64,000 nt of DNA, from contig JBKBPM010000001.1 in NCBI GenBank assembly GCA_046293175.1, forward strand, positions 299,446-363,445, written 5' to 3'. This document shows, piece by piece, positions 6,182 through 54,238 of this stretch. A model generated the notes under the pieces. The model was given only the letters and a program-made list of their open reading frames with translations, had not been told where the DNA came from and ran no database searches. Positions within the stretch are counted from its first letter, which is position 1. Each line of letters opens with the position of its first letter. This DNA comes from Minisyncoccia bacterium (GTDB lineage Bacteria; Patescibacteriota; Minisyncoccia; Phycocordibacterales; UBA918). A program made the translations under genes and the position numbers.

Positions 6182-6252
6182 CTGGTCACTCCTTCTGACT
6201 TTTGAAATTATATCACAGAATATAAAAAAATCAAAAAGCTACAAACACAAAC

Positions 6253-6276
6253 AAAATCCTCCCGAAGGAGGATTTT
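6253..6276 (-). terminator. rho-independent terminator-like hairpin (aaaatcctcc cgaa ggaggatttt) with U-tracts on both sides
   Basis: Perfect 10-bp stem. In minus sense it is followed by UUUGUUUGUGUUU. Lies downstream (minus sense) of repeat element R1. Confidence 0.5.
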
Positions 6277-6376
6277 GTGTTTTAACGCTTCGGACAGGAA
6301 ACGTAAAAAATGAAATGGAGAGTAAAGCGTGAGATTTCAAAACGGTAGAAATTGGATGCAATACGAGGCGCGCAAG

Positions 6377-6402
6377 AAAAAAGACCCGAATGGGTCTTTT
6401 TT
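6377..6402 (-). terminator. bidirectional rho-independent terminator (aaaaaagaccc gaat gggtctttttt)
   Basis: GC stem flanked by A6/T6 runs. Likely 3' end of the rpsI/R1 transcript. Confidence 0.55.
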
Positions 6403-6545
6403 CTTATTGTGCTTTGTTATAAAACGGAAAGTTTTTGATGTATGGCGAGGAGCATAGGAGAAAATGTTGTGAGTGGGATGAATAATCCAGCGAACAATGT
6501 TTTCTTCGTAGCGACAAAGCCAATCGTCAAAAATTATCGCTTCCC

Positions 6546-6701
6546 CACGAATCACTAAGTATATTTGTTCGCTACGCTCCAAATCTACCAAGTGTTCTCG
6601 GACCCGCCTCGCGGTTTTCTGCTTTGGTAAAGCAGAAAACATCGCTGCGGCCTCAAAACGATAATGGAGTCCAGCAGTGGACTCCATTTGATTATCGTTT
6701 T
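6546..6701 (-). ncRNA. copy R1 of a 3-copy structured repeat / candidate ncRNA family, immediately 3' of rpsI (overlaps the rpsI stop codon)
   Basis: Shares conserved blocks with 53305..53497 and 45708..45775: cacgaatcactaagtata, aagtgttctcg, cccgcctcgcggtttt and aaaacatcgctgcggc (plus strand). The stems between the blocks differ by compensatory changes (see findings). The G-U versus A-U pair in the long hairpin is only valid in the minus-sense transcript. Confidence 0.5.
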
Positions 6702-7096
6702 GACCAAGCTGGGCGCTTGCGAGCTTTAAGGAGACCAAACTTCTTACGTTCTACTGAACGAGCATCACGCTTGAGGAATCCGGCTTTCTTGAGGGTGGTA
6801 CGACGAGCGTCCTTTTCCTTCACGAGTGCACGAGCGATACCAAGTCGGATAGCGTCAGCCTGTGCTGAGATACCCCCTCCTTGTACCTTGGCGGTAATTG
6901 CGTAGTGCTCGATTCCAGCGTCTGGAGTGGCGAGTACTGACTCAATCACCTGTTGGTGACCAACGTGCTTGAAGTATTCAGCCAGTGGACGGTTGTTCAC
7001 GATGACTGAAGTCTCTTTGGCTGGCGTGAGACGCACACGGGTAGTGGCGGTCTTACGACGTCCAATGGCTTCAGTGTAACGAGTTGCAGTAGCCAT
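6692..7096 (-). CDS. rpsI: 30S ribosomal protein S9
   Basis: GRRK N-terminus and the characteristic C-terminus ...KARKRPAWSKR. Confidence 0.9.
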   Translation of the reverse strand: MATATRYTEAIGRRKTATTRVRLTPAKETSVIVNNRPLAEYFKHVGHQQVIESVLATPDAGIEHYAITAKVQGGGISAQADAIRLGIARALVKEKDARRTTLKKAGFLKRDARSVERKKFGLLKARKRPAWSKR

Positions 7097-26462: not shown

Positions 26463-29285
26463 CTAGGCCACGATAATGTTGAGGATTTTGCCAGGGATGT
26501 AGATAACTTTGGTAATAGTTCCCCCACTCACGTACTTCGAGATGTGATGATCACCACGGGCAAGCTCAAGAGCAGTAATTTCACTGGCGTCTGGTGCCAA
26601 GGTGATCTTGCCGCGCAATTTACCATTAATCTGTACACCAATCACTACCGCAGTGTCGCGTGCAAGTGTCTCGTCGCCGACCGGATACTCTTCACGGTGG
26701 ATACTTGAGGAGTGCCCAAGCTCGTGCCAGATTTCTTCGGTCAGGTGTGGAGCAAATGGAGCCAAGAGTCGCACAAATAATTCGTATGAGGCTTTGGTGA
26801 GTCCTGCTTTCTCAGCGAGGTTTACAAAGATCATCATCGCACTAATTGCGGTATTGAACTTGAACTCTGTAATATCTTGACTGACTTTGATGATGGTCTT
26901 GTGCAGTTGACGGGTCACTTCTGCAGTTTCTGCGCCGACGATGTGTTCAGGAAGGCCATACACACGTTCGAGGAAGCGACGGATACCGGCGATACCGCCC
27001 ATGTCCCATGGGTAGTTGTTACCCTCATAGGGCCCCATAAAGGCGAGATACATTTTGACTGTATCAGCACCGACGAGCTTCACTTGTTCGTCTGGATCAA
27101 TAACATTCCCTTTACTCTTACTCATCTTGTTACCATCTGGACCCAGGATGAGTCCCCGGTTGATACGCCGACGGTACGGTTCGCTCTCGGTCACCAGACC
27201 AAGGTCAAAGAGCGCCTTCTGCCAGAAGCGGGAGTAGAGGAGGTGCATGGTGGTGTGTTCTGCCCCACCAAAGTAGATATCAATCGGCATCCAATCTTTC
27301 TGACGTTCTAGGCTGGAGAGAGCATCATCATTGAGGTTATCGATGTAGCGAAGGAAATACCATGAAGAGTCGACAAAGGTGTCCATAGTTTCAACTTCAG
27401 GTGACCATCCTTCACCAAATAGCTCGACGGTTCGGCGTTTCAACTCTTCACTTTTGGCGAGTGGGGCGACACCGGTAGGGGTTGGATCGACACCTTCGGG
27501 TAGGAGCCATGGTAGGTGTTCTTTTGGTACTACGTGCGCTTCACCATCGGGACTGTATACAATTGGGATTGGGACGCCCCAATAGCGCTGTCGCCCAATC
27601 GACCAGTCACGGAGACGATAGGTCGAGGTCATCCGACCACCGACTTTCGCAACAATTTTTTCTTTGGCGGTTTCTGACGGTAATCCATCGAACTCACCTG
27701 AGTTGCAGACAGTCCCGCTACCAGTAAATGGAATCACCCCATCAAGTTGTCGGAGACAGTAGAGATCTTCTTCGATAGTAAACTTTTCAAGTAATTCTTC
27801 CTTGGTAAGCCATACCGGTTCTTGCTTAGCTAACTCCTCAGCTGGTATTTCGTTTTGTGTGTCTGAAGTTAGTTCAAGGAGGACTCGACGACTAGTTAGA
27901 ACTCTATTTACTTGTTTACCGGGATGGAAAAAGTGAGCTTCTGTTTCCTCAGAGATAAATCGAACGAATTTGGTTTTGTAACCTGTTTTTTCCTCGACTT
28001 CACGGATCGCTGCTTCCTCATAACTTTCTCCTTTCTCGAGACCACCAAATATGAAGCTATAGTTTTGAAACTCATGACTATACTGCACAAGATATTTGTC
28101 GGTCTTAGGGTTGTAGACGAGTGATCCAACAGCAGTGCGTGGCACCGGATTCGGTAGAGGTTGACCGAAGACTTTTCGTACCACCTGCTTCACCGGCAAA
28201 TCAAACTTCTTTGCAAATTCACCGTCACGTTCATCGTGAGCTGGTACGGCCATAATCGCCCCGGTGCCGTAGTCACCAAGCACGTAGTCTGCGACAAAGA
28301 CAGGGATTGCTTCTCCATTGGCGGGATTGATAGCAGTAATACCTTCGAGCTTCACGCCCGTCTTTTCCTTCGTGGTGTCAAGACGATCTTGTTCGTCTTT
28401 TTGTTTGGCTTTGGCTACATATGCATCCACATCAGTTACGTTCGCGGTTTTTTCCCGCACTTCAGCTGTCTGGAGTAGCGGGTGCTCCGGGGCGAGGACG
28501 AGGTAGGTAGCCCCAAAGAGCGTATCAGGACGAGTGGTGAAGACAGTGACTTTGTCACCAGTTGAAAGAGTAAAGTCTATCTCAGCGCCCTTTGAGCGAC
28601 CGATCCACTGCCGTTGGGCTTCTTTGATATGCTCTGGCCAATCGAGCGCGGCGAGGTCGTCCGTCAGTCGATCAGCGTACTTCGTGATACGCAACATCCA
28701 CTGTGGCATCTCGCGCTTCTCTATGACATCACCCGACCGTTCACAGGTACCGTCTGCGAGTACCTGTTCGTTCGCTATCGCCGTGTTACAACCCGGGCAC
28801 CAGTTTACGACCCCTTTGCCACGGTACGCAATACCATTGTTAAAAAACTGCGTGAACATCCACTGCGTCCACTTGTAGTAGCTCTCGTCGGTACTGGAGG
28901 TGGTTTTGTCCCAGGCAAACATGTTGCCCATACTCGCGAGCTGCTCGCGCATGTAGGCCATGTTGTCATACGTCCAGGTCTTGGGGTTGAGGCCACGTTT
29001 AATAGCGGCGTTTTCGGCGGGGAGACCAAAGGCATCAAAGCCCATCGGAAAGAGCACCTGCTTACCCTGCATCTGGCGAAAGCGGGCGTAGATATCAGGT
29101 ACCGCAAAAGCGTACCAATGACCGATATGGAGGTTGCCAGAGGGGTATGGCCATTCGACGAGGAGGTATTCCTTTTCGCGACTGTGGTCACGGTCACCAA
29201 CCGTGTGTTGACCCGATTCGGCCCAGACTTGTTGCCACTTCTTCTCAATCGCGTTGTCGAATTTTTTGTGCATAGAAAATACCAC
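26463..29285 (-). CDS. leuS: leucyl-tRNA synthetase with a Nudix-like insertion
   Basis: HIGH (HIGH at YPSGNLHIGHW), KMSKS (KMSKSKGN), CP1 editing motifs TTRPDT and GTGAIMAVPAHDERD. Extra segment of about 125 aa between ...KQVV and NSGEFDGL containing GGLEKGESYEEAAIREVEEKTGY. Confidence 0.95.
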   Translation of the reverse strand: MVFSMHKKFDNAIEKKWQQVWAESGQHTVGDRDHSREKEYLLVEWPYPSGNLHIGHWYAFAVPDIYARFRQMQGKQVLFPMGFDAFGLPAENAAIKRGLNPKTWTYDNMAYMREQLASMGNMFAWDKTTSSTDESYYKWTQWMFTQFFNNGIAYRGKGVVNWCPGCNTAIANEQVLADGTCERSGDVIEKREMPQWMLRITKYADRLTDDLAALDWPEHIKEAQRQWIGRSKGAEIDFTLSTGDKVTVFTTRPDTLFGATYLVLAPEHPLLQTAEVREKTANVTDVDAYVAKAKQKDEQDRLDTTKEKTGVKLEGITAINPANGEAIPVFVADYVLGDYGTGAIMAVPAHDERDGEFAKKFDLPVKQVVRKVFGQPLPNPVPRTAVGSLVYNPKTDKYLVQYSHEFQNYSFIFGGLEKGESYEEAAIREVEEKTGYKTKFVRFISEETEAHFFHPGKQVNRVLTSRRVLLELTSDTQNEIPAEELAKQEPVWLTKEELLEKFTIEEDLYCLRQLDGVIPFTGSGTVCNSGEFDGLPSETAKEKIVAKVGGRMTSTYRLRDWSIGRQRYWGVPIPIVYSPDGEAHVVPKEHLPWLLPEGVDPTPTGVAPLAKSEELKRRTVELFGEGWSPEVETMDTFVDSSWYFLRYIDNLNDDALSSLERQKDWMPIDIYFGGAEHTTMHLLYSRFWQKALFDLGLVTESEPYRRRINRGLILGPDGNKMSKSKGNVIDPDEQVKLVGADTVKMYLAFMGPYEGNNYPWDMGGIAGIRRFLERVYGLPEHIVGAETAEVTRQLHKTIIKVSQDITEFKFNTAISAMMIFVNLAEKAGLTKASYELFVRLLAPFAPHLTEEIWHELGHSSSIHREEYPVGDETLARDTAVVIGVQINGKLRGKITLAPDASEITALELARGDHHISKYVSGGTITKVIYIPGKILNIIVA

Positions 29286-45658: not shown

Positions 45659-45834
45659 CTTTTGATTCCCCTAAGGTCGCACAACAGCAACGACATAGGA
45701 ATCGGTCACCAGTCACTAAGTATATTTGTTCGTTTCACTCCAAATCTACTAAGTGCTGTCCACCCCGCCTCGCCGACCCAGAGGGTCCCCGGCTACGTCT
45801 TTCGATTCCCCTAAGGTCGCACAACAGCAACGAC
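45659..45834 (-). repeat. copy R2 of the structured repeat family, bracketed by 36-bp direct repeats (1 mismatch) carrying an inverted 16-18 nt copy of the tRNA-Ala(GGC) 3' end
   Basis: Direct repeats ctttYgattcccctaaggtcgcacaacagcaacgac at 45659..45694 and 45799..45834. Between them, 45708..45775 matches the long hairpin and the CCGCGAGG block of R1/R3. Confidence 0.55.
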
Positions 45835-45865
45835 CACAATGCAAAAACATTGTGGTCGGCTGATT

Positions 45866-45938
45866 GTGGACCTTAGGGGAATCGAACCCCTCACCTCTTC
45901 CATGCCATGGAAGCGCTCTACCAAATGAGCTAAAGGCC
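45866..45938 (-). tRNA. tRNA-Ala (anticodon GGC)
   Basis: Reverse complement folds as a cloverleaf GGGCCUU/AAGGUCC with G3:U70, anticodon loop AUGGCAU, T-loop GGUUCGAUUCC and A73. No CCA encoded. Confidence 0.9.
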
Positions 45939-45947
45939 CGGTGCGTA

Positions 45948-48095: not shown

Positions 48096-48809
48096 TTACT
48101 TCCCTGCCTCGTACTCTGCACGCACGATTGCCTCATCCTCGCGACTGAGTGTCTTTTGATACCGAGCACCCTTGACCCCTTTAACCCGCGCTTCACACTC
48201 GGCCCAGGTAGCATGTATTTGCACTACCCCATCAACTTTGCTGATATACGAATAGGCCTTCTGCGTTTGGCGCTTGCGAGCATCACTGCGGTCTTGCTTT
48301 TTGGTGTCGTCATAACTTGTATCAGAGAGATCGTGCCCGTAGTCCTTCACAGGCCCGTTATAAAGCGGGTAAGTGCCTTTCTCTGCCATGGTTGATGCAA
48401 TTTCGTCTACTCGTTCATTACCGACAATACCGACGTGTCCTGGGACTTTATGCCAATCGATAGTCGTAATCTTCAAGAGCGGTAGAAGCGCCTGCCACAG
48501 TTCTTTGTTCGCCACATCGGTCTTCGCCTTCGTTTGCCAGCCATTTTCGGCCCACCTATACACCCAGCCGGTAGCACCTTCAACCACGTACTTCGAGTCG
48601 GTATAGATGTGTACCGTAGCAGTGGTGCCGGTAACCTGTTTTAGTGCCTCTACGACTGCCGTTAGCTCCATTTCATTGTTGGTTGTCCTGGTTTTGTATC
48701 CACCAAGCTCGGTGACCGTCTTGCCATCAGTAATGACTACTCCATAGCCACCGCGGCCGGGATTCCCTTTAGCTGCCCCGTCTGTAAATATCGTGATCGT
48801 CGCTGTCAT
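48096..48809 (-). CDS. rnhA: ribonuclease HI with a C-terminal hybrid-binding (HBD / Cauli_VI-like) domain
   Basis: RNase H core (TIFTDGAAKGNPG...ELTAV...HIYTDSKYV...WHKVPGH) followed by KAYSYISKVDGVVQIHATWAECEARVKGVKGARYQKTLSREDEAIVRAEYE, which resembles the RNase H1 N-terminal HBD fold motif. Confidence 0.8.
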   Translation of the reverse strand: MTATITIFTDGAAKGNPGRGGYGVVITDGKTVTELGGYKTRTTNNEMELTAVVEALKQVTGTTATVHIYTDSKYVVEGATGWVYRWAENGWQTKAKTDVANKELWQALLPLLKITTIDWHKVPGHVGIVGNERVDEIASTMAEKGTYPLYNGPVKDYGHDLSDTSYDDTKKQDRSDARKRQTQKAYSYISKVDGVVQIHATWAECEARVKGVKGARYQKTLSREDEAIVRAEYEAGK

Positions 48810-48875
48810 GAGGAAAAGTGTAACATGCGACCGACTTGCAGTCATAGTCGAGGTCTAACCTGCTATAATCAGCGT

Positions 48876-49453: not shown

Positions 49454-50260
49454 TTATAGTGACTTAGAATAGTTGCACTTTGGGTATGTTATACAACCAA
49501 GAAATTTTCCATACTTGCCAGATTTTTCAACTAGCTTACTACCACACTTTGGACAAGTTATTTCAGTAACTGTAACTAGCTTTTGTTTTGGTAAATCCTT
49601 ATCATCAAGAATTGATACAAGTTTTCGTCCGTCGATGAGATTAATATTATTTTTTTGTGCAAATGCCAGCGCTTCTTTTGTGAATTTACCTGATGTCACA
49701 ACAAAACCACCGACTGCCTTTTCCGCTGTCATTAATCCATAGACTTCACGGATAACAGTCACTGGTACTTTACTTGCTTTATAATGCTTGCACTGGACAA
49801 GGTGAAGTCCTTTTGAGTCATGTAATTTTATATCAATACCACCATCTGCACCTCCACCACCAGTTAATTGTGCACTATAGCCTTGCTTCTTAAACCACTC
49901 GAACATCAAAAACTCAAAGTCTTGCCAACTCATAGACTGAATTGCTTTTAAAGCGCCTTGTTGAGAAATAGAGCCAAAAAGTACACGACTCCGAATTCGT
50001 TGCAGTACACTGATAAGTGCACCGGTTAGCAACGCAGCTGGAACTATGTATTTAAAGAGCGCTATGTAAAAAACTTTAAAGATCATCAGCAGCACACCTG
50101 ATTGATCCTGAAAAAGCGATTGTGAGAGTTCGATGGCTGGAACAAAATAATACAAAAGAATTGCCGCTGGTATAGTTGCCCAAAGCGGTAGCATTATTGA
50201 TAGTTCTGTAAGTTCACTAAAAAAGTATTCAAACGGAGTTGGTTCTGATCGTCGAGACAT
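49454..50260 (-). CDS. membrane-anchored Mrr-like restriction endonuclease with C-terminal topoisomerase-type C4 zinc ribbon
   Basis: 2 N-terminal TM. Mrr_cat core (SWQDFEFLMFEWFKKQGY...GGADGGIDIKL...LVQCKHYK). C-terminal CPKCGSKLVEKSGKYGKFLGCITYPKC. Confidence 0.75.
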   Translation of the reverse strand: MSRRSEPTPFEYFFSELTELSIMLPLWATIPAAILLYYFVPAIELSQSLFQDQSGVLLMIFKVFYIALFKYIVPAALLTGALISVLQRIRSRVLFGSISQQGALKAIQSMSWQDFEFLMFEWFKKQGYSAQLTGGGGADGGIDIKLHDSKGLHLVQCKHYKASKVPVTVIREVYGLMTAEKAVGGFVVTSGKFTKEALAFAQKNNINLIDGRKLVSILDDKDLPKQKLVTVTEITCPKCGSKLVEKSGKYGKFLGCITYPKCNYSKSL

Positions 50261-52863: not shown

Positions 52864-52950
52864 CTAGAAGAACCTCCGTGTTCAGCTGCTATGATAATAG
52901 CACAGATTTTGGTAAAAATCAAGGGTTATGAGAATATAATATTGAAAAAG

Positions 52951-52975
52951 CCGGGGTGTAACCCCGCCTTTATAT
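52951..52975 (-). terminator. rho-independent terminator (aaaagcc ggggtgtaacccc gccttt)
   Basis: Ends the tRNA-Ala(UGC)/R3 transcription unit in minus sense (GGCGGGGUUACACCCCGGCUUUUU). Confidence 0.55.
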
Positions 52976-53304
52976 ATGGGTACTCGACTTCTTCTGCCGA
53001 GACACGTTTTGAAATCGCTTCGACCCACCGGCTCCAGTCATGACGACGAGAGAACGGAATACGGCGGATTGACTCGATATACTCGCCTACCATAACACAG
53101 GCCGTTACGTAAGCTTCTTTAAGGTCTTTGTGGCTCACAAAGTGCAGTGTAGCGATTAGCTTCTTTGTTGGCCATGGTGACCTCCTTGTCTGGCGGTAGC
53201 ATAGAGGATTTGAGTAGGATGTAAAATGGAAGACCCTCGAAGATTCGGTCCTTACAGAACCAGTACCCGTTGTCGCTATATTGTTTTGCAATTACTGCAG
53301 TGGT

Positions 53305-53497
53305 CACGAATCACTAAGTATAATCTCTCACTACGTTCAGATTCTACTAAGTGTTCTCGACCCCGCCTCGCGGTTTTTCGCCTTGCGAGGGCGAAAAACA
53401 TCGCTGCGGCTTCCACATCGGCACGGAAGCGATACTTATCGCTTCCTAGACAAAACAAAGACCACTCCAGTGAGTGGTCTTTGTTTGTCTGCCGATG
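53305..53497 (-). ncRNA. copy R3 of the structured repeat / candidate ncRNA family, abutting the 3' end of tRNA-Ala(UGC)
   Basis: Same conserved blocks as R1, with compensatory stem differences. An extra 5'-proximal (minus sense) multi-hairpin domain is closed by ccacatcggca/tgccgatgtgg, which includes the last 3 nt of the tRNA. Confidence 0.5.
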
Positions 53498-53570
53498 TGG
53501 ACCCGAGAAGATTCGAACTCCCTGCCTCCTCAGTGCAAATGAGGCGCTCTACCAAGTGAGCTACGGGCCC
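53498..53570 (-). tRNA. tRNA-Ala (anticodon UGC)
   Basis: Reverse complement GGGCCCGUAGCUCA...CCUCAUUUGCACUGAGG...GGUUCGAAUCU...CGGGUCCA. G3:U70, anticodon UGC, A73. No CCA encoded. Confidence 0.9.
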
Positions 53571-53607
53571 AAGTTTTGCAAGCGCGACACCTGCAAAGCT
53601 GGTGCAT

Positions 53608-53636
53608 ATACTACTTAATCTAGAGTAAATAGTCAA
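53608..53636 (-). promoter_or_regulatory. sigma-70-like promoter for tRNA-Ala(UGC): TTGACT -17- TAGTAT
   Basis: Good match to consensus. The -10 lies 37 nt upstream of tRNA position 1. Confidence 0.5.
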
Positions 53637-53641
53637 TAGGA

Positions 53642-54238
53642 TTATTCTAGAACTTGAAGTTTCCACGGGGTGGCTACAGCGGCTGAACTATACTGTCCAA
53701 TGGTGATTGCATCACCATTCCAGGCCGCAGTCAGCGCGTCACTGATATTGGTGATGAACTTCTTTCCGTTAAAAGAAACCGGCTGAATCACGTTTTCCTC
53801 CACATCAAAGATATAGTGGGTACATTCTTCTACTTCTGTCTGTTGTTCACAGAAATGCACAAAGCGGTGGTCTGCAGATGCGCTATAGGTAGGAATCTTT
53901 TTGTGGATACCTTGGGTAGCAAAACCTTCCACGTTTTCTACTGGCATTATTTCATTACTGAGAGAGAGAACAAACCGATCGCCGTGGACATAGGCATAGA
54001 GTTTGCCATCTTCATAGCGAGCTACTTCCTCTGTGGTTGTTGGTACAACGTCTTCCGGTGGGTTGCCAGTTGGTGGTATATACCCCTCTGGAACAAAATC
54101 AGGGGCTACCACTACCTCGCTGGTTTCCAGAGAGAAGTGATTTGAAATACCAAAACCAATAAAACCGGAAGTAAGTCCAATAATGTAAGCCAGTACAACG
54201 AGCACGGCTTTTTCGTGTTTAGTACCTTCTAAATTCAT
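53642..54238 (-). CDS. hypothetical membrane-anchored protein
   Basis: N-terminal TM (VLVVLAYIIGLTSGFIGFGI), Pro-rich linker, C-terminal domain. Confidence 0.5.
   Translation of the reverse strand: MNLEGTKHEKAVLVVLAYIIGLTSGFIGFGISNHFSLETSEVVVAPDFVPEGYIPPTGNPPEDVVPTTTEEVARYEDGKLYAYVHGDRFVLSLSNEIMPVENVEGFATQGIHKKIPTYSASADHRFVHFCEQQTEVEECTHYIFDVEENVIQPVSFNGKKFITNISDALTAAWNGDAITIGQYSSAAVATPWKLQVLE

What the first reader, a model, noticed from the sequence alone, without database searches (positions are those of the whole stretch)
53305..53570. tRNA-Ala(UGC) - R3 element - 18-codon ORF - terminator form one compact minus-strand unit, with a stem that includes the tRNA 3' end
The R3 copy starts at the nucleotide after tRNA-Ala(UGC). 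Its first helix (minus sense CCACAUCGGCA ... UGCCGAUGUGG) uses the last three tRNA nucleotides (C71 C72 A73) as part of the stem. It encloses two further hairpins and then the conserved core.

Downstream in minus sense there is a short ORF, MANKEANRYTALCEPQRP, with a very strong RBS (ACAAGGAGGUCACC-AUG, ATG at 53175..53173). The intrinsic terminator at 52951..52975 follows.

A promoter-like TTGACT-17-TAGTAT sits 37 nt upstream of the tRNA. The tRNA and the structured element are therefore probably co-transcribed. The tRNA 3' end would be sequestered in a stem until processed.
Basis: partly seen in the sequence, partly recalled or inferred. Interest (0 to 1): 0.55.

Follow-up and report, generated by a model that had tools for sequence, protein, structure and literature searches.

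The report
tRNA-trailing structured RNA insertion cassette
Just behind this alanine tRNA gene sits one copy of an apparently undescribed family of small structured-RNA cassettes, widespread in Patescibacteria, that lodge at the tail ends of tRNA, ribosomal-protein and ftsZ genes, carry a spare copy of the gene's end plus its antisense, and are gained, lost and swapped between genomes.

Summary
The tRNA+R3 unit is real and general. A covariance model finds 3 copies in the window and 148 in 742 kb of Paceibacteria/Parcubacteria DNA, and no Rfam family matches. The core is a two-hairpin junction with strong covariation (14 of 27 pairs compensatory) and a conserved G.U pair. Copies always lie downstream of, and co-oriented with, a tRNA (71 of 71 cases) or rpsI, rplL, an L2-like gene or ftsZ. 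Each copy has a locus-specific antisense segment (S') that pairs with the 3' end of the upstream gene. The displaced original gene end survives downstream as a direct repeat. Cassettes stack in tandem, differ between near-identical genomes, and are near-identical between diverged genomes, so they are mobile. No recombinase or reverse transcriptase lies nearby. The 18-codon ORF is not part of the unit. It is the stump of a ~98-aa gene broken by a 95-nt deletion. Function and insertion mechanism remain inferred.

The parts
53608..53636 (-). Promoter-like site TTGACT-17-TAGTAT, 37 nt upstream of the tRNA.
   Evidence: Consensus scan, 9 of 12 matches. The same sequence is present in the close relative L125. 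Function not tested.
53498..53570 (-). tRNA-Ala(UGC), with G3:U70 and no encoded CCA.
   Evidence: ARAGORN; Rfam RF00005, 62.4 bits.
53490..53501 (-). S: 5' strand of the long-range helix P0. It consists of tRNA nt 70-73 plus the first 8 nt of trailer (UCCACAUCGGCA).
   Evidence: MFE fold; coordinates. The equivalent helix is found family-wide.
53449..53489 (-). H1: 18-bp hairpin with an A-rich 5' arm and a U-rich 3' arm. Its inner part is terminator-like.
   Evidence: Fold. Equivalent hairpins occur in most tRNA-linked copies. Terminator activity is inferred; the simple scan did not flag it.
53425..53446 (-). H2: 10-bp hairpin flanked by UAG...CG.
   Evidence: Fold. A recurrent module with the same flanks occurs in many loci.
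53412..53423 (-). S': locus-specific antisense segment UGCCGAUGUGGA, the 3' strand of P0. Its 3' end (UGUGG) can alternatively pair with CCAC just after the core (helix P1).
53362..53410 (-). Core domain A: a hairpin with a conserved GNA/GA internal loop, an AU bulge and a variable apical stem.
   Evidence: Alignment, RNAalifold and pair counts. Helices 1 and 2 show compensatory changes.
53303..53361 (-). Core domain B: a long irregular hairpin (GUCGAGAA CACUUAGUAGA ... UAUACUUAGUG AUUCGUGAC). It has a conserved G.U pair, a U.U and a G.A mismatch, and a GNA triloop.
   Evidence: Divergent subfamilies show compensatory changes inside the conserved arms.
53295..53303 (-). Short decayed direct repeat of the tRNA end plus trailer (CCACUGCAG versus CCACAUCGGCAG). 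It forms the 3' strand of P1.
   Evidence: Read directly from the sequence. P1 statistics.
53247..53294 (-). Extra module (UUGC...GCGACAAC GGGUACUG GUUCUGUAAGGACC). It resembles the expanded domain found in 'large' family variants and is probably a remnant of an older unit.
   Evidence: Compared by eye with L024, L071 and L100. Weak evidence.
53227..53247 (-). Older direct repeat of the tRNA-Ala(UGC) 3' end, starting in the T-loop (CGAAUCUUCGAGGGUCUUCCA versus CGAAUCUUCUCGGGUCCA). Relatives L125 and L124 carry a further 178-nt R3 unit here, flanked by GACCGAATCTTC repeats.
53119..53187 (-). RBS AAGGAGG plus the 18-codon ORF MANKEANRYTALCEPQRP*. This is the 5' stump of a ~98-aa gene and is not part of the cassette.
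   Evidence: The homolog P0122 is 98 aa; the window has a 95-nt deletion.
52929..53093 (-). Remaining 3' part of the same broken gene. It is called as a 55-aa ORF (P0121), has lost its stop codon, and reads through the terminator hairpin.
52944..52968 (-). Intrinsic-terminator-like hairpin followed by a T run. It belongs to the downstream gene.
45694..45939 (-). Copy 2.
- tRNA-Ala(GGC): 45867-45939.
- H1: 45832-45857.
- S': 45801-45823, with 18 nt exactly antisense to the tRNA T-loop/T-stem/acceptor 3' strand.
- Core: 45704-45799.
- Repeat of the tRNA T-arm: 45694-45703.
   Evidence: (85.3 bits).
6534..6703 (-). Copy 1, behind rpsI.
- Last codons plus stop, UCAAAACGAUAA: 6692-6703.
- Hairpin: 6663-6688.
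- S' AUCGUUUUGA: 6653-6662.
- Core: 6544-6651.
- Displaced old rpsI end GGGGAAGCGAUAA: 6534-6546.
   Evidence: (109.9 bits).

Best explanation
R3 is the conserved RNA core of a family of small cassettes (about 150-300 nt including flanks) that lack their own promoter and any protein gene. The family appears restricted to Paceibacteria/Parcubacteria (Patescibacteria).

A cassette sits in the 3' trailer or 3' UTR of a highly expressed essential gene: a tRNA, rpsI, rplL, an L2-like gene or ftsZ. It always has the same orientation as that gene.

From 5' to 3' a cassette contains:
1. its own copy of the last 4-40 nt of the host gene (S), so the gene stays intact;
2. usually one or two hairpins (H1, H2);
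3. a locus-specific antisense segment (S');
4. the conserved two-hairpin core.

The gene end that was there before is pushed downstream. It remains there as a direct repeat that slowly decays.

The cassette is transcribed by read-through from the host gene. In the RNA, S' clamps the host RNA's 3' end into a long-range helix (P0) next to the core. Alternatively S' pairs with the downstream repeat (P1), closing a three-way junction.

Cassettes are mobile on evolutionary time scales. They stack in tandem, are lost by recombination between the repeats, are replaced as whole units, and move between diverged genomes into the same site.

Shown: the architecture, the RNA-level structure, the co-orientation, the displaced gene ends, and the gain, loss, replacement and transfer of units.

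Inferred: the read-through transcription, the insertion machinery (presumably acting in trans, with the structured RNA as its recognition or guide element), and any benefit or cost to the host.
For: Family and structure:
- The covariance model gives 114, 110 and 85 bits for the three window copies and 148 hits in 742 kb of related loci.
- There are 27 consensus pairs and 14 of them show compensatory changes. 97.9% of cells are paired against 86.3% in shuffles, with 0 of 500 shuffles reaching the observed value. Slid controls give 25-41% paired.
- One G.U pair is conserved in 33 of 40 sequences.
- Subfamilies carry compensatory changes inside the most conserved arms.

Position:
- 71 of 127 copies have a tRNA within 400 nt upstream. 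All 71 are on the same strand and cover many isotypes.
- 70 of 108 tRNAs in the sampled loci are followed by a copy.
- Other copies follow rpsI, rplL, an L2-like gene and ftsZ.

Antisense segment and repeat:
- S' is exactly complementary to the upstream gene end over 11-25 nt.
- P0 of at least 11 bp occurs in 52 of 97 copies, against about 4% of controls.
- Direct repeats of the tRNA 3' end, 19-22 nt long, follow the core.
- S' tracks synonymous differences in the gene end. For rpsI, UCAAAACGAU pairs with AUCGUUUUGA, while UCGAAGCGU pairs with ACGCUUCGA. For the L2-like gene, GGAAAACGG and GGGAAGAGAUA each have a matching S'.
- On the sense strand G.U outnumbers A.C 47 to 8; on the reverse complement the counts are 13 to 16.

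Mobility:
- Relatives at 81-90% S9 identity lack the rpsI copy but keep the downstream flank.
- Repeats behind ftsZ still encode VPAFLRRSKLK* but with many synonymous differences from the functional copy, including Ser TCA versus AGT.
- Between L038 and L059 the cassette is 97-100% identical, while upstream ftsZ is 55-90% identical and downstream DNA 12-50%.
- Between L065 and L072 the flanks are 97-100% identical but the cassette only 67-82%. Twelve synonymous changes in S are mirrored in S'.
- Tandem units of different subfamilies are common.
- At the finding's own locus, L125 and L124 carry an extra 178-nt unit flanked by GACCGAATCTTC repeats that the window lacks.
Against: - No transposase, integrase, reverse transcriptase or nuclease gene recurs within 2.5 kb of copies, and none is in this window. 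The means of movement is therefore unknown.
- Copies within one genome are only about 80% identical, so there has been no recent burst.
- The rpsI copy looks orthologous across four genomes, with a conserved core and co-varying S/S'. That fits a host-maintained functional RNA equally well.
- Unit replacement could also come from ordinary homologous recombination after DNA uptake.
- How a cassette would acquire a new S/S' pair for a new target gene is not explained.
- Many tRNA-linked copies have a terminator-like H1 upstream of S' and the core. That would limit read-through.
- No expression data were available.
Confidence: 0.5

Rival explanations
1. R3 is a host-serving, cis-acting 3'-end module. 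Under this view it is an RNA that the host maintains behind translation and division genes, and mobility is not its defining property. S' clamps the 3' end of the tRNA or mRNA (including the stop codon) into helix P0, and the conserved junction recruits a protein such as an RNase. The outcome would be defined or protected 3' ends. Alternatively the element would act as a switch: P0 sequesters the gene end, while P1 (S' paired with the repeat) releases it. That would couple tRNA maturation and mRNA termination or stability to a signal.
For: - Copies are co-oriented with, and placed only behind, tRNA, r-protein and ftsZ genes.
- S and S' co-vary in apparently orthologous rpsI and L2-like copies, while the downstream repeat decays.
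- G.U pairs are enriched on the sense strand.
- The core is strongly conserved, with conserved internal loops, across several candidate phyla.
- P0 and P1 are mutually exclusive pairings of the same segment.
Against: - Stacked tandem units, each displacing a still-coding gene end.
- Whole-unit replacement between near-identical genomes, and a near-identical unit in diverged genomes.
- Presence/absence differences between close relatives.
- 38 of 108 tRNAs in the same loci do without a copy.
- P1 is weak in many copies.
- No ligand or protein partner is known.
Confidence: 0.3
2. R3 is a dicistronic tRNA-ncRNA gene. It would be a stand-alone small RNA that borrows the tRNA promoter and is released by RNase Z/P-type processing, as plant tRNA-snoRNA genes are. 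It would then act in trans, with S' as a guide segment.
For: - It follows tRNAs closely and in the same orientation.
- In 'long' copies, S'a-H2-S'b plus the downstream repeat imitate an acceptor stem and T stem with H2 in place of the other arms.
- Conserved scaffold segments alternate with variable target-matched segments.
- There is a plant precedent, cited in the reference list of PMC12045711.
Against: - The same element sits in the 3' UTRs of protein-coding genes, with S' matching their last codons. No tRNA-type processing is expected there.
- The 'guide' matches only its own neighbour gene.
- I saw no box C/D-like motif by eye (not formally tested), and no other guide-RNA family was detected.
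Confidence: 0.1
3. R3 is a DNA-level repeat of the REP/BIME or MITE kind. The hairpins would matter as DNA (cruciform or protein-binding sites) and the RNA structure would be incidental.
For: - It is an extragenic, multi-copy, palindrome-rich element located after genes.
- The two near-palindromic ACTTAGT boxes could be protein-binding sites.
Against: - A G.U pair is conserved in 33 of 40 sequences; it would be C.A on the other strand.
- G.U outnumbers A.C 47 to 8 on the sense strand only.
- Orientation relative to the upstream gene is strict, 71 of 71.
- The flanking pairing segments are locus-specific. They are not conserved terminal repeats.
Confidence: 0.05
4. One reading: tRNA, R3, an 18-codon regulatory ORF and the terminator form one functional transcription unit.
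For: - All parts lie on one strand between one promoter-like site and one terminator-like site.
- The RBS is strong.
Against: - The ORF is the remnant of a 98-aa gene with a 95-nt frameshifting deletion.
- No other family member is followed by a homologous ORF.
- Cassettes precede unrelated sequences.
Confidence: 0.03

Closest known systems
Integrative elements that insert into the 3' end of a tRNA or protein gene and bring a replacement 3' end. Examples are tRNA-targeting genomic islands and prophages, and e14/phage 21 in E. coli icd (from my own knowledge).
   Same: - The target gene stays intact because the insert supplies a new 3' end.
- The old end is displaced downstream as a direct repeat.
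- The supplied end can differ at synonymous sites.
- Insertion recurs at the same site in different genomes.
   Different: - R3 cassettes are only 150-300 nt and carry no integrase or any other ORF.
- They add an antisense copy of the gene end.
- They contain a covarying RNA structure on the sense strand.
- They stack in tandem.
- They serve many different targets with one conserved core.
REP/BIME (REPIN) and MITE-type extragenic repeats, such as E. coli REP and Neisseria Correia elements (from my own knowledge).
   Same: - Short, multi-copy, hairpin-forming elements without protein genes.
- Located in 3' UTRs and intergenic regions.
- Transcribed with neighbouring genes.
   Different: - Those elements have conserved terminal sequences and do not copy or complement the neighbouring gene's end.
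- R3's flanking pairing segments are locus-specific.
- R3's orientation is strictly tied to the upstream gene.
Right-end guide RNAs of IS200/IS605 transposons (TnpB/IscB omega RNA) and IS110 bridge RNAs (from my own knowledge).
   Same: - A conserved structured scaffold is directly abutted by target-derived sequence (here core + repeat).
- Segments complementary to the target are embedded in a conserved RNA.
- A possible role in keeping or re-inserting the element at its site.
   Different: - No TnpB, IscB or IS110 gene is adjacent.
- No Rfam family, HEARO included, matched.
- The matched segments are 11-40 nt and include a full replacement of the gene end.
Dicistronic tRNA-snoRNA genes of plants (Kruszka et al. 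2003, cited in PMC12045711) and functional tRNA trailers such as the E. coli 3'ETS-leuZ sponge (from my own knowledge).
   Same: A non-tRNA RNA is expressed from the tRNA's transcription unit, immediately 3' of the tRNA.
   Different: - R3 also follows protein-coding genes.
- It pairs with its own upstream gene end.
- It is flanked by displaced gene ends.
- It shows turnover typical of a mobile element.
T-box riboswitch.
   Same: A structured RNA that base-pairs with a tRNA 3' end.
   Different: - A T-box lies 5' of the gene it regulates, reads the anticodon and the free NCCA end of a tRNA in trans, and has a defined Rfam model.
- R3 lies 3' of the gene, pairs in cis with gene-encoded sequence including the trailer, and gave no T-box hit.

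Membership tests
tRNA (RF00005) | Cloverleaf scoring above the Rfam gathering score, with the Ala identity pair G3:U70. | tested here: met
   62.4 bits against a threshold of 29. ARAGORN gives anticodon UGC. G3:U70 read from the sequence.
Any curated RNA family (Rfam 15, 4227 models) | A match to a family covariance model for the R3 core or its large variants. | tested here: not met
   The whole window at gathering threshold gives only 2 tRNAs. Region 52900-53700 at E<=10 gives only noise (RNAI 18.4 bits, E 0.84). Eight loci with large variants give only tRNAs and noise.
Self-splicing intron (group I / group II) | A match to intron models, and a host gene that is interrupted and needs splicing. 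| tested here: not met
   No Rfam hit. The tRNA and the ORFs are complete without splicing.
Integrative element at a gene 3' end (attL/attR type) | Direct repeat of the target's 3' end flanking the insert, with the gene restored by the insert. | tested here: met
   19-22 nt repeats of tRNA ends. Displaced ftsZ, rplL and rpsI ends. Window repeat at 53227-53247.
Integrative element at a gene 3' end (attL/attR type) | An integrase or recombinase gene carried by the element. | tested here: not met
   The insert is 150-300 nt with no ORF. No recurrent recombinase-like ORF family lies within 2.5 kb of 151 copies. Pfam on window neighbours finds none.
MITE | Terminal inverted repeats conserved among copies, plus a short fixed-length target-site duplication. 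| tested here: not met
   The pairing flanks (S', repeat) differ from locus to locus and match the neighbouring gene. The duplicated length varies from about 9 to more than 40 nt.
REP/BIME-RAYT system | A conserved palindromic unit independent of flanking genes, with a RAYT transposase in the genome. | tested here: inconclusive
   The first feature is not met, because the flanks complement the neighbouring gene. Presence of a RAYT gene elsewhere in these genomes could not be checked.
Retron | An ncRNA flanked by inverted repeats, with an adjacent reverse-transcriptase gene. | tested here: not met
   P1 resembles the a1/a2 stem, but no RT gene is adjacent. There are many copies per genome.
IS200/IS605 omega RNA or IS110 bridge RNA | The RNA is encoded at the end of an element that also encodes TnpB/IscB or a DEDD recombinase. 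| tested here: not met
   No such ORF is next to copies. A trans-acting enzyme elsewhere in the genome could not be tested.
T-box riboswitch | A 5' leader with a specifier loop and a T-box sequence that pairs with the tRNA NCCA end. | tested here: not met
   No Rfam hit. The element is 3' of the tRNA gene, and S' pairs with encoded trailer sequence.
Small regulatory ORF / leader peptide | The short ORF is conserved in relatives and associated with the element. | tested here: not met
   The ortholog is a 98-aa ORF and the window has a 95-nt deletion. tblastn finds no homolog behind other copies.
Intrinsic terminator (52944-52968) | A GC-rich hairpin followed by a T run. | tested here: met
   Consensus scan: 6-bp stem with 5 GC pairs, tail GCTTTTTC. 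Activity not testable here.
Self-cleaving ribozyme (hammerhead, twister, pistol, hatchet, HDV-like) | A match to the class consensus or model. | tested here: not met
   No Rfam hit at E<=10. The junction GA(A)AG lacks a CUGAUGA partner on inspection. Cleavage activity is not testable here.

The most novel reading that the evidence does not exclude
R3 cassettes are natural 'home-and-rescue' selfish elements. Under this reading the structured core, together with its target-matched segments (S' and/or the abutting repeat), serves as the guide RNA for a nuclease or recombinase encoded elsewhere in the genome. That enzyme would cut cassette-free alleles of essential genes (tRNAs, ribosomal proteins, FtsZ) at a fixed position near the 3' end. 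The cassette would then be copied in, together with its own recoded replacement of the gene end, so the gene keeps working while the element spreads between Patescibacteria that take up DNA.
Probability: 0.15. Interest if true: 0.95.

Novelty: categorically new. Interest (0 to 1): 0.82.

Why it matters
Patescibacteria make up a large share of bacterial diversity, yet almost nothing is known about their non-coding RNA or mobile DNA.

- This family is abundant. In the sampled loci about two thirds of tRNA genes carry a copy.
- It touches the most essential genes of the cell.
- It combines features that I know of in no described element. These are a covarying three-way-junction RNA, an antisense segment tailored to each host gene, a built-in replacement of the gene's end, and no protein gene.
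- If it is a mobile element, it is a new way of parasitising essential genes safely, and possibly a programmable insertion system.
- If it is a host device, it is a new kind of 3'-end control shared by tRNAs and mRNAs.
- On a practical level, it explains assembly breaks, spurious ORF calls and apparent 'duplicated gene ends' in these genomes.

Tried and rejected
- **Known RNA families.** Rfam at gathering and permissive thresholds on the window and on large variants gave nothing.
- **Ribozyme and protein-binding motifs.** I looked by eye for hammerhead (GAAA/CUGAUGA), kink-turn, box C/D and sarcin-ricin motifs in the conserved loops. None fits the covarying pairs.
- **tRNA D-loop resemblance.** CACUUAGUAGA in the core resembles the tRNA D-arm CACUUGGUAGA. 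I judged this compatible with chance.
- **5S rRNA resemblance.** AGUGAAACG occurs in the core, but in a variable loop. Rejected.
- **Internal promoter.** A promoter inside domain B (TAGATT-18-TATACT) is too weak.
- **Phage or plasmid origin.** There were 0 hits in viral contigs.
- **Autonomous parent element.** ORFs within 2.5 kb of 151 copies cluster only into housekeeping genes and spurious ORFs overlapping the repeat.
- **Intron reading.** I considered that the downstream repeat is the real exon. I rejected this because the repeat is decayed in several loci while the upstream copy is always intact.
- **Retroviral-type primer-binding site.** S' complements encoded trailer nucleotides. It does not complement a post-transcriptional CCA.
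- **Precise ribozyme or RNase cut at tRNA position 73.** The junction-proximal end of P0 lies at position ~70 in short copies and at 54 in long ones, so the geometry is not fixed.
- **Empty-site search for this tRNA.** A metagenome pattern search found nothing.
- **Clean filled/empty tRNA pairs.** A blastn search among the fetched loci returned mostly conserved neighbouring tRNAs.
- **Literature.** Six full-text searches found no description of the element.
Full report
**1.

On the minus strand ARAGORN and Rfam place tRNA-Ala(UGC) at 53498-53570. It has G3:U70 and no encoded CCA.

The 286 nt from 53575 to 53290 fold far better than shuffled sequence (-132.6 kcal/mol, z = -8.3). UCCACAUCGGCA (tRNA nt 70-73 plus 8 trailer nt, 53490-53501) pairs with UGCCGAUGUGGA (53412-53423). 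This helix encloses an 18-bp hairpin (H1, 53449-53489) and a 10-bp hairpin (H2, 53425-53446). Two further hairpins follow it and make up the conserved core (53303-53410; coordinates).

The promoter-like TTGACT-17-TAGTAT site, the terminator-like hairpin at 52952-52966 with its T run, the RBS and the 18-codon ORF are all present.

**2. R3 is a large family**

The window has three copies, all on the minus strand:
- behind tRNA-Ala(UGC);
- behind tRNA-Ala(GGC), core at 45704-45799;
- behind rpsI, core at 6544-6651.

The organism is a Patescibacterium of the Parcubacteria/Paceibacteria type, judging by the names attached to S9 homologs.

Nearly all hits are in Kaiserbacteria, Paceibacteria, Nomurabacteria, Yonathbacteria, Lloydbacteria and unnamed Patescibacteria MAGs, often with several hits per genome. 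The viral contig collection gave none.

Rfam 15 has no matching family at either gathering or permissive thresholds, including for enlarged variants. Six literature searches found no description.

**3. The core is a structured RNA on the tRNA-sense strand**

I aligned 40 cores. The consensus has 27 pairs, and 14 of them show compensatory double changes.
- 97.9% of cells are paired, against 86.3% in column shuffles.
- 0 of 500 shuffles reached the observed values on any of the five measures.
- Sliding the 3' partners by 1-3 columns drops pairing to 25-41%.

One G.U pair is conserved in 33 of 40 sequences. On the opposite strand it would be C.A.

The covariance model scores the window copies at 114, 110 and 85 bits. 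It finds 148 matches in 742 kb of fetched loci. Matches that lack my search pattern belong to sister subfamilies, for example GUACUUACUAGA...UAUAGUUAGUAAC. These carry compensatory changes inside the arms my pattern had fixed. The apparent invariance of those arms was therefore partly an artefact of my search, and the helix is genuine.

Domain A has a conserved GNA/GA internal loop and an AU bulge below a freely varying stem. Domain B has a U.U mismatch, a G.A mismatch, a bulged A and a GNA triloop.

**4. Position and flanks**

Of 127 pattern matches, 71 have a tRNA within 400 nt upstream. In all 71 the tRNA is on the same strand, and the tRNAs cover many isotypes. In the sampled loci, which are biased towards carrying a copy, 70 of 108 tRNAs are followed by a copy.

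The remaining copies follow another R3 unit (19 cases) or the stop codon of a co-oriented gene (30 cases). Those genes include ftsZ (8 loci), rpsI, rplL and an L2-like gene.

The segment immediately 5' of the core (S') is the reverse complement of the upstream gene's end.
- It gives 11-25 nt of exact complementarity to tRNA ends plus trailer.
- It complements the last 10-40 nt of ftsZ, rpsI and the L2-like gene, including the stop codon.

A helix of at least 9 bp between S' and its own upstream sequence occurs in 78% of copies, against 28% of swapped controls. A helix of at least 11 bp occurs in 52 of 97 copies, against about 4% of controls.

In the region from the tRNA end through H1, H2 and S', internal G.U pairs outnumber A.C mismatches 47 to 8 on the sense strand. 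On the reverse complement the counts are 13 to 16. These hairpins are therefore also shaped at the RNA level.

Downstream of the core lies a direct repeat of the gene's end. It is 19-22 nt long, running from the T-loop to the discriminator, in many tRNA-linked copies. S' can pair with this repeat instead, forming P1, which closes a three-way junction. This alternative pairing is weaker and less universal: at least 6 bp in 58% of copies, against 26% of controls.

**5. The repeat is the displaced original gene end**

Relatives with 81-90% identical S9 lack the core behind rpsI. Their rpsI ends in the sequence that in the window lies after the core, and their downstream flank aligns with the window's.

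Behind ftsZ, the repeat in five loci still encodes VPAFLRRSKLK* followed by a stop. It differs from the functional copy at many synonymous sites, including Ser TCA versus AGT. The cassette therefore brings its own version of the gene end.

In the window, 53227-53247 (CGAAUCUUCGAGGGUCUUCCA) is such a displaced tRNA-Ala end. In relatives, older repeats carry CCA (TCCACCA), while the present tRNA copy does not.

**6. Cassettes turn over and move**

- L038 and L059 share a cassette (the last 24 nt of ftsZ, S' and the core) that is 97-100% identical. Upstream ftsZ is 55-90% identical and downstream DNA 12-50%.
- The converse holds for L065 and L072. Their flanks are 97-100% identical, but the cassette is only 67-82% identical. 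Twelve synonymous differences in the gene end are each mirrored in S'. The whole unit was exchanged.
- Tandem units of different subfamilies are common.
- At the finding's own locus, the close relative L125 and also L124 carry an additional 178-nt unit flanked by GACCGAATCTTC repeats. The window lacks this unit.
- The S' of that older unit complements the tRNA end with CCA.

Against recent transposition, copies within this genome are only about 80% identical. The rpsI-linked copies in four genomes also look orthologous, with S and S' co-varying.

No transposase, integrase, reverse transcriptase or nuclease family recurs within 2.5 kb of copies, and none is in the window.

**7. The ORF**

The 18-codon ORF shares its start (MANK..RY) and RBS with a 98-aa protein (P0122, 77% identical) encoded at the same place in L124. 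The window has a 95-nt deletion after codon 10-12 that shifts the frame. The remaining 3' part (called as the 55-aa P0121) has lost its stop and reads through the terminator hairpin. No similar ORF follows other copies. The ORF and the terminator belong to a decaying neighbour gene, not to the element.

**8. Interpretation**

What is shown:
- a conserved sense-strand RNA structure;
- obligatory co-orientation behind highly expressed essential genes;
- a gene-specific antisense clamp;
- a replacement gene end together with a displaced original end;
- stacking, loss, replacement and inter-genome transfer of units.

I therefore read R3 as the RNA core of a small mobile cassette without any protein gene. 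It rides in the 3' trailer or UTR of essential genes and keeps them intact by supplying their ends.

What is inferred:
- that it is transcribed by read-through; in ftsZ-linked copies such as L072 the antisense follows the stop codon directly, with no intervening terminator-like hairpin;
- that the RNA is what a trans-acting enzyme recognises;
- how S and S' are generated for a new target.

The main rival is a host-maintained 3'-end module for processing, protection, or a P0/P1 switch. The covariation of S with S' supports it, and it need not exclude mobility.

**9. Comparison with known systems**

The nearest functional analogues are:
- integrative elements that restore the 3' end of their target gene;
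- transposon-end guide RNAs;
- REP/MITE repeats;
- plant tRNA-snoRNA genes.

Each shares one or two features with R3 and fails on a defining one: a recombinase gene, conserved termini, an adjacent nuclease, or box motifs. I could not place R3 in any described family.

Noticed in passing
window 6240-6540 (minus strand); L002 10405-10590, L003, L005: About 170 nt of non-coding sequence after rpsI ends in a terminator (AAAAAAGACCCAUUCGGGUCUUUUUU). It is conserved in relatives that lack R3. The window seems to carry a second, partial copy ending in a second terminator (AAAAUCCUCCUUCGGGAGGAUUUU). It may be another conserved 3' UTR element or small RNA.
   Followed up: partly
window 45659-45694 and 45799-45834: A 36-nt direct repeat (97% identical) flanks the core of copy 2. 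Each copy contains part of hairpin H1 plus the antisense of the tRNA-Ala(GGC) 3' end. The antisense segment is therefore present twice but the core only once, which suggests a deleted second unit.
   Followed up: partly
L021, L099, L089 (sequence downstream of the displaced tRNA ends): The presumably original terminator hairpins behind the displaced tRNA ends also include the tRNA acceptor 3' strand in their stem. Pairing of the tRNA 3' end with its trailer may therefore be a general habit of tRNA genes in these bacteria, independent of R3.
   Followed up: partly
L076 2171-2257, L012 3925-4021, L034 7563-7654, L041 3752-3820: A reduced relative of the family has a normal domain A but a different, shorter second hairpin (GUCGUGAGCGAUAUAUUUU...AAAAUAAUYGACUCCUGACC). 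It is probably a sister family.
   Followed up: no
L024, L071, L100, L068, L034, L047, L067, L095: 'Large' variants have domain A expanded by a multi-branched insert with the conserved motifs UUCGCAAGNGGUUGCC...GACAACCUGAACAG and a NNN-CUGUAAG-NNN hairpin. They have no Rfam match.
   Followed up: partly
window 26463-29285 (minus strand): The leucyl-tRNA synthetase ORF carries a NUDIX hydrolase domain (residues 382-502) right after the editing domain. This is an unusual fusion.
   Followed up: no
window 48096-48845 and 49454-50260 (minus strand): There is an RNase H with an RNase H1 N-terminal-type domain at its C-terminus, and an Mrr-type restriction endonuclease fused to a topoisomerase-type zinc ribbon. 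Neither is linked to R3.
   Followed up: no
L012 (contig JBLHQB010000003.1): A MAG labelled Patiriisocius sp. (a flavobacterium) carries five family-model (R1) matches behind Patescibacteria-like genes. The contig is probably mis-binned.
   Followed up: no
L096 3088-3177, L098 6855-6943, L123: tRNA-Ser(UGA) genes that lack R3 are followed by a different conserved block of about 160 nt (81-86% identical between genomes).
   Followed up: no
L032, L124, L125 versus window 53498: Displaced tRNA-Ala ends carry an encoded CCA (GGGUCCACCA), while the cassette-supplied functional ends do not. Insertion seems to convert CCA-encoding tRNA genes into CCA-less ones.
   Followed up: partly
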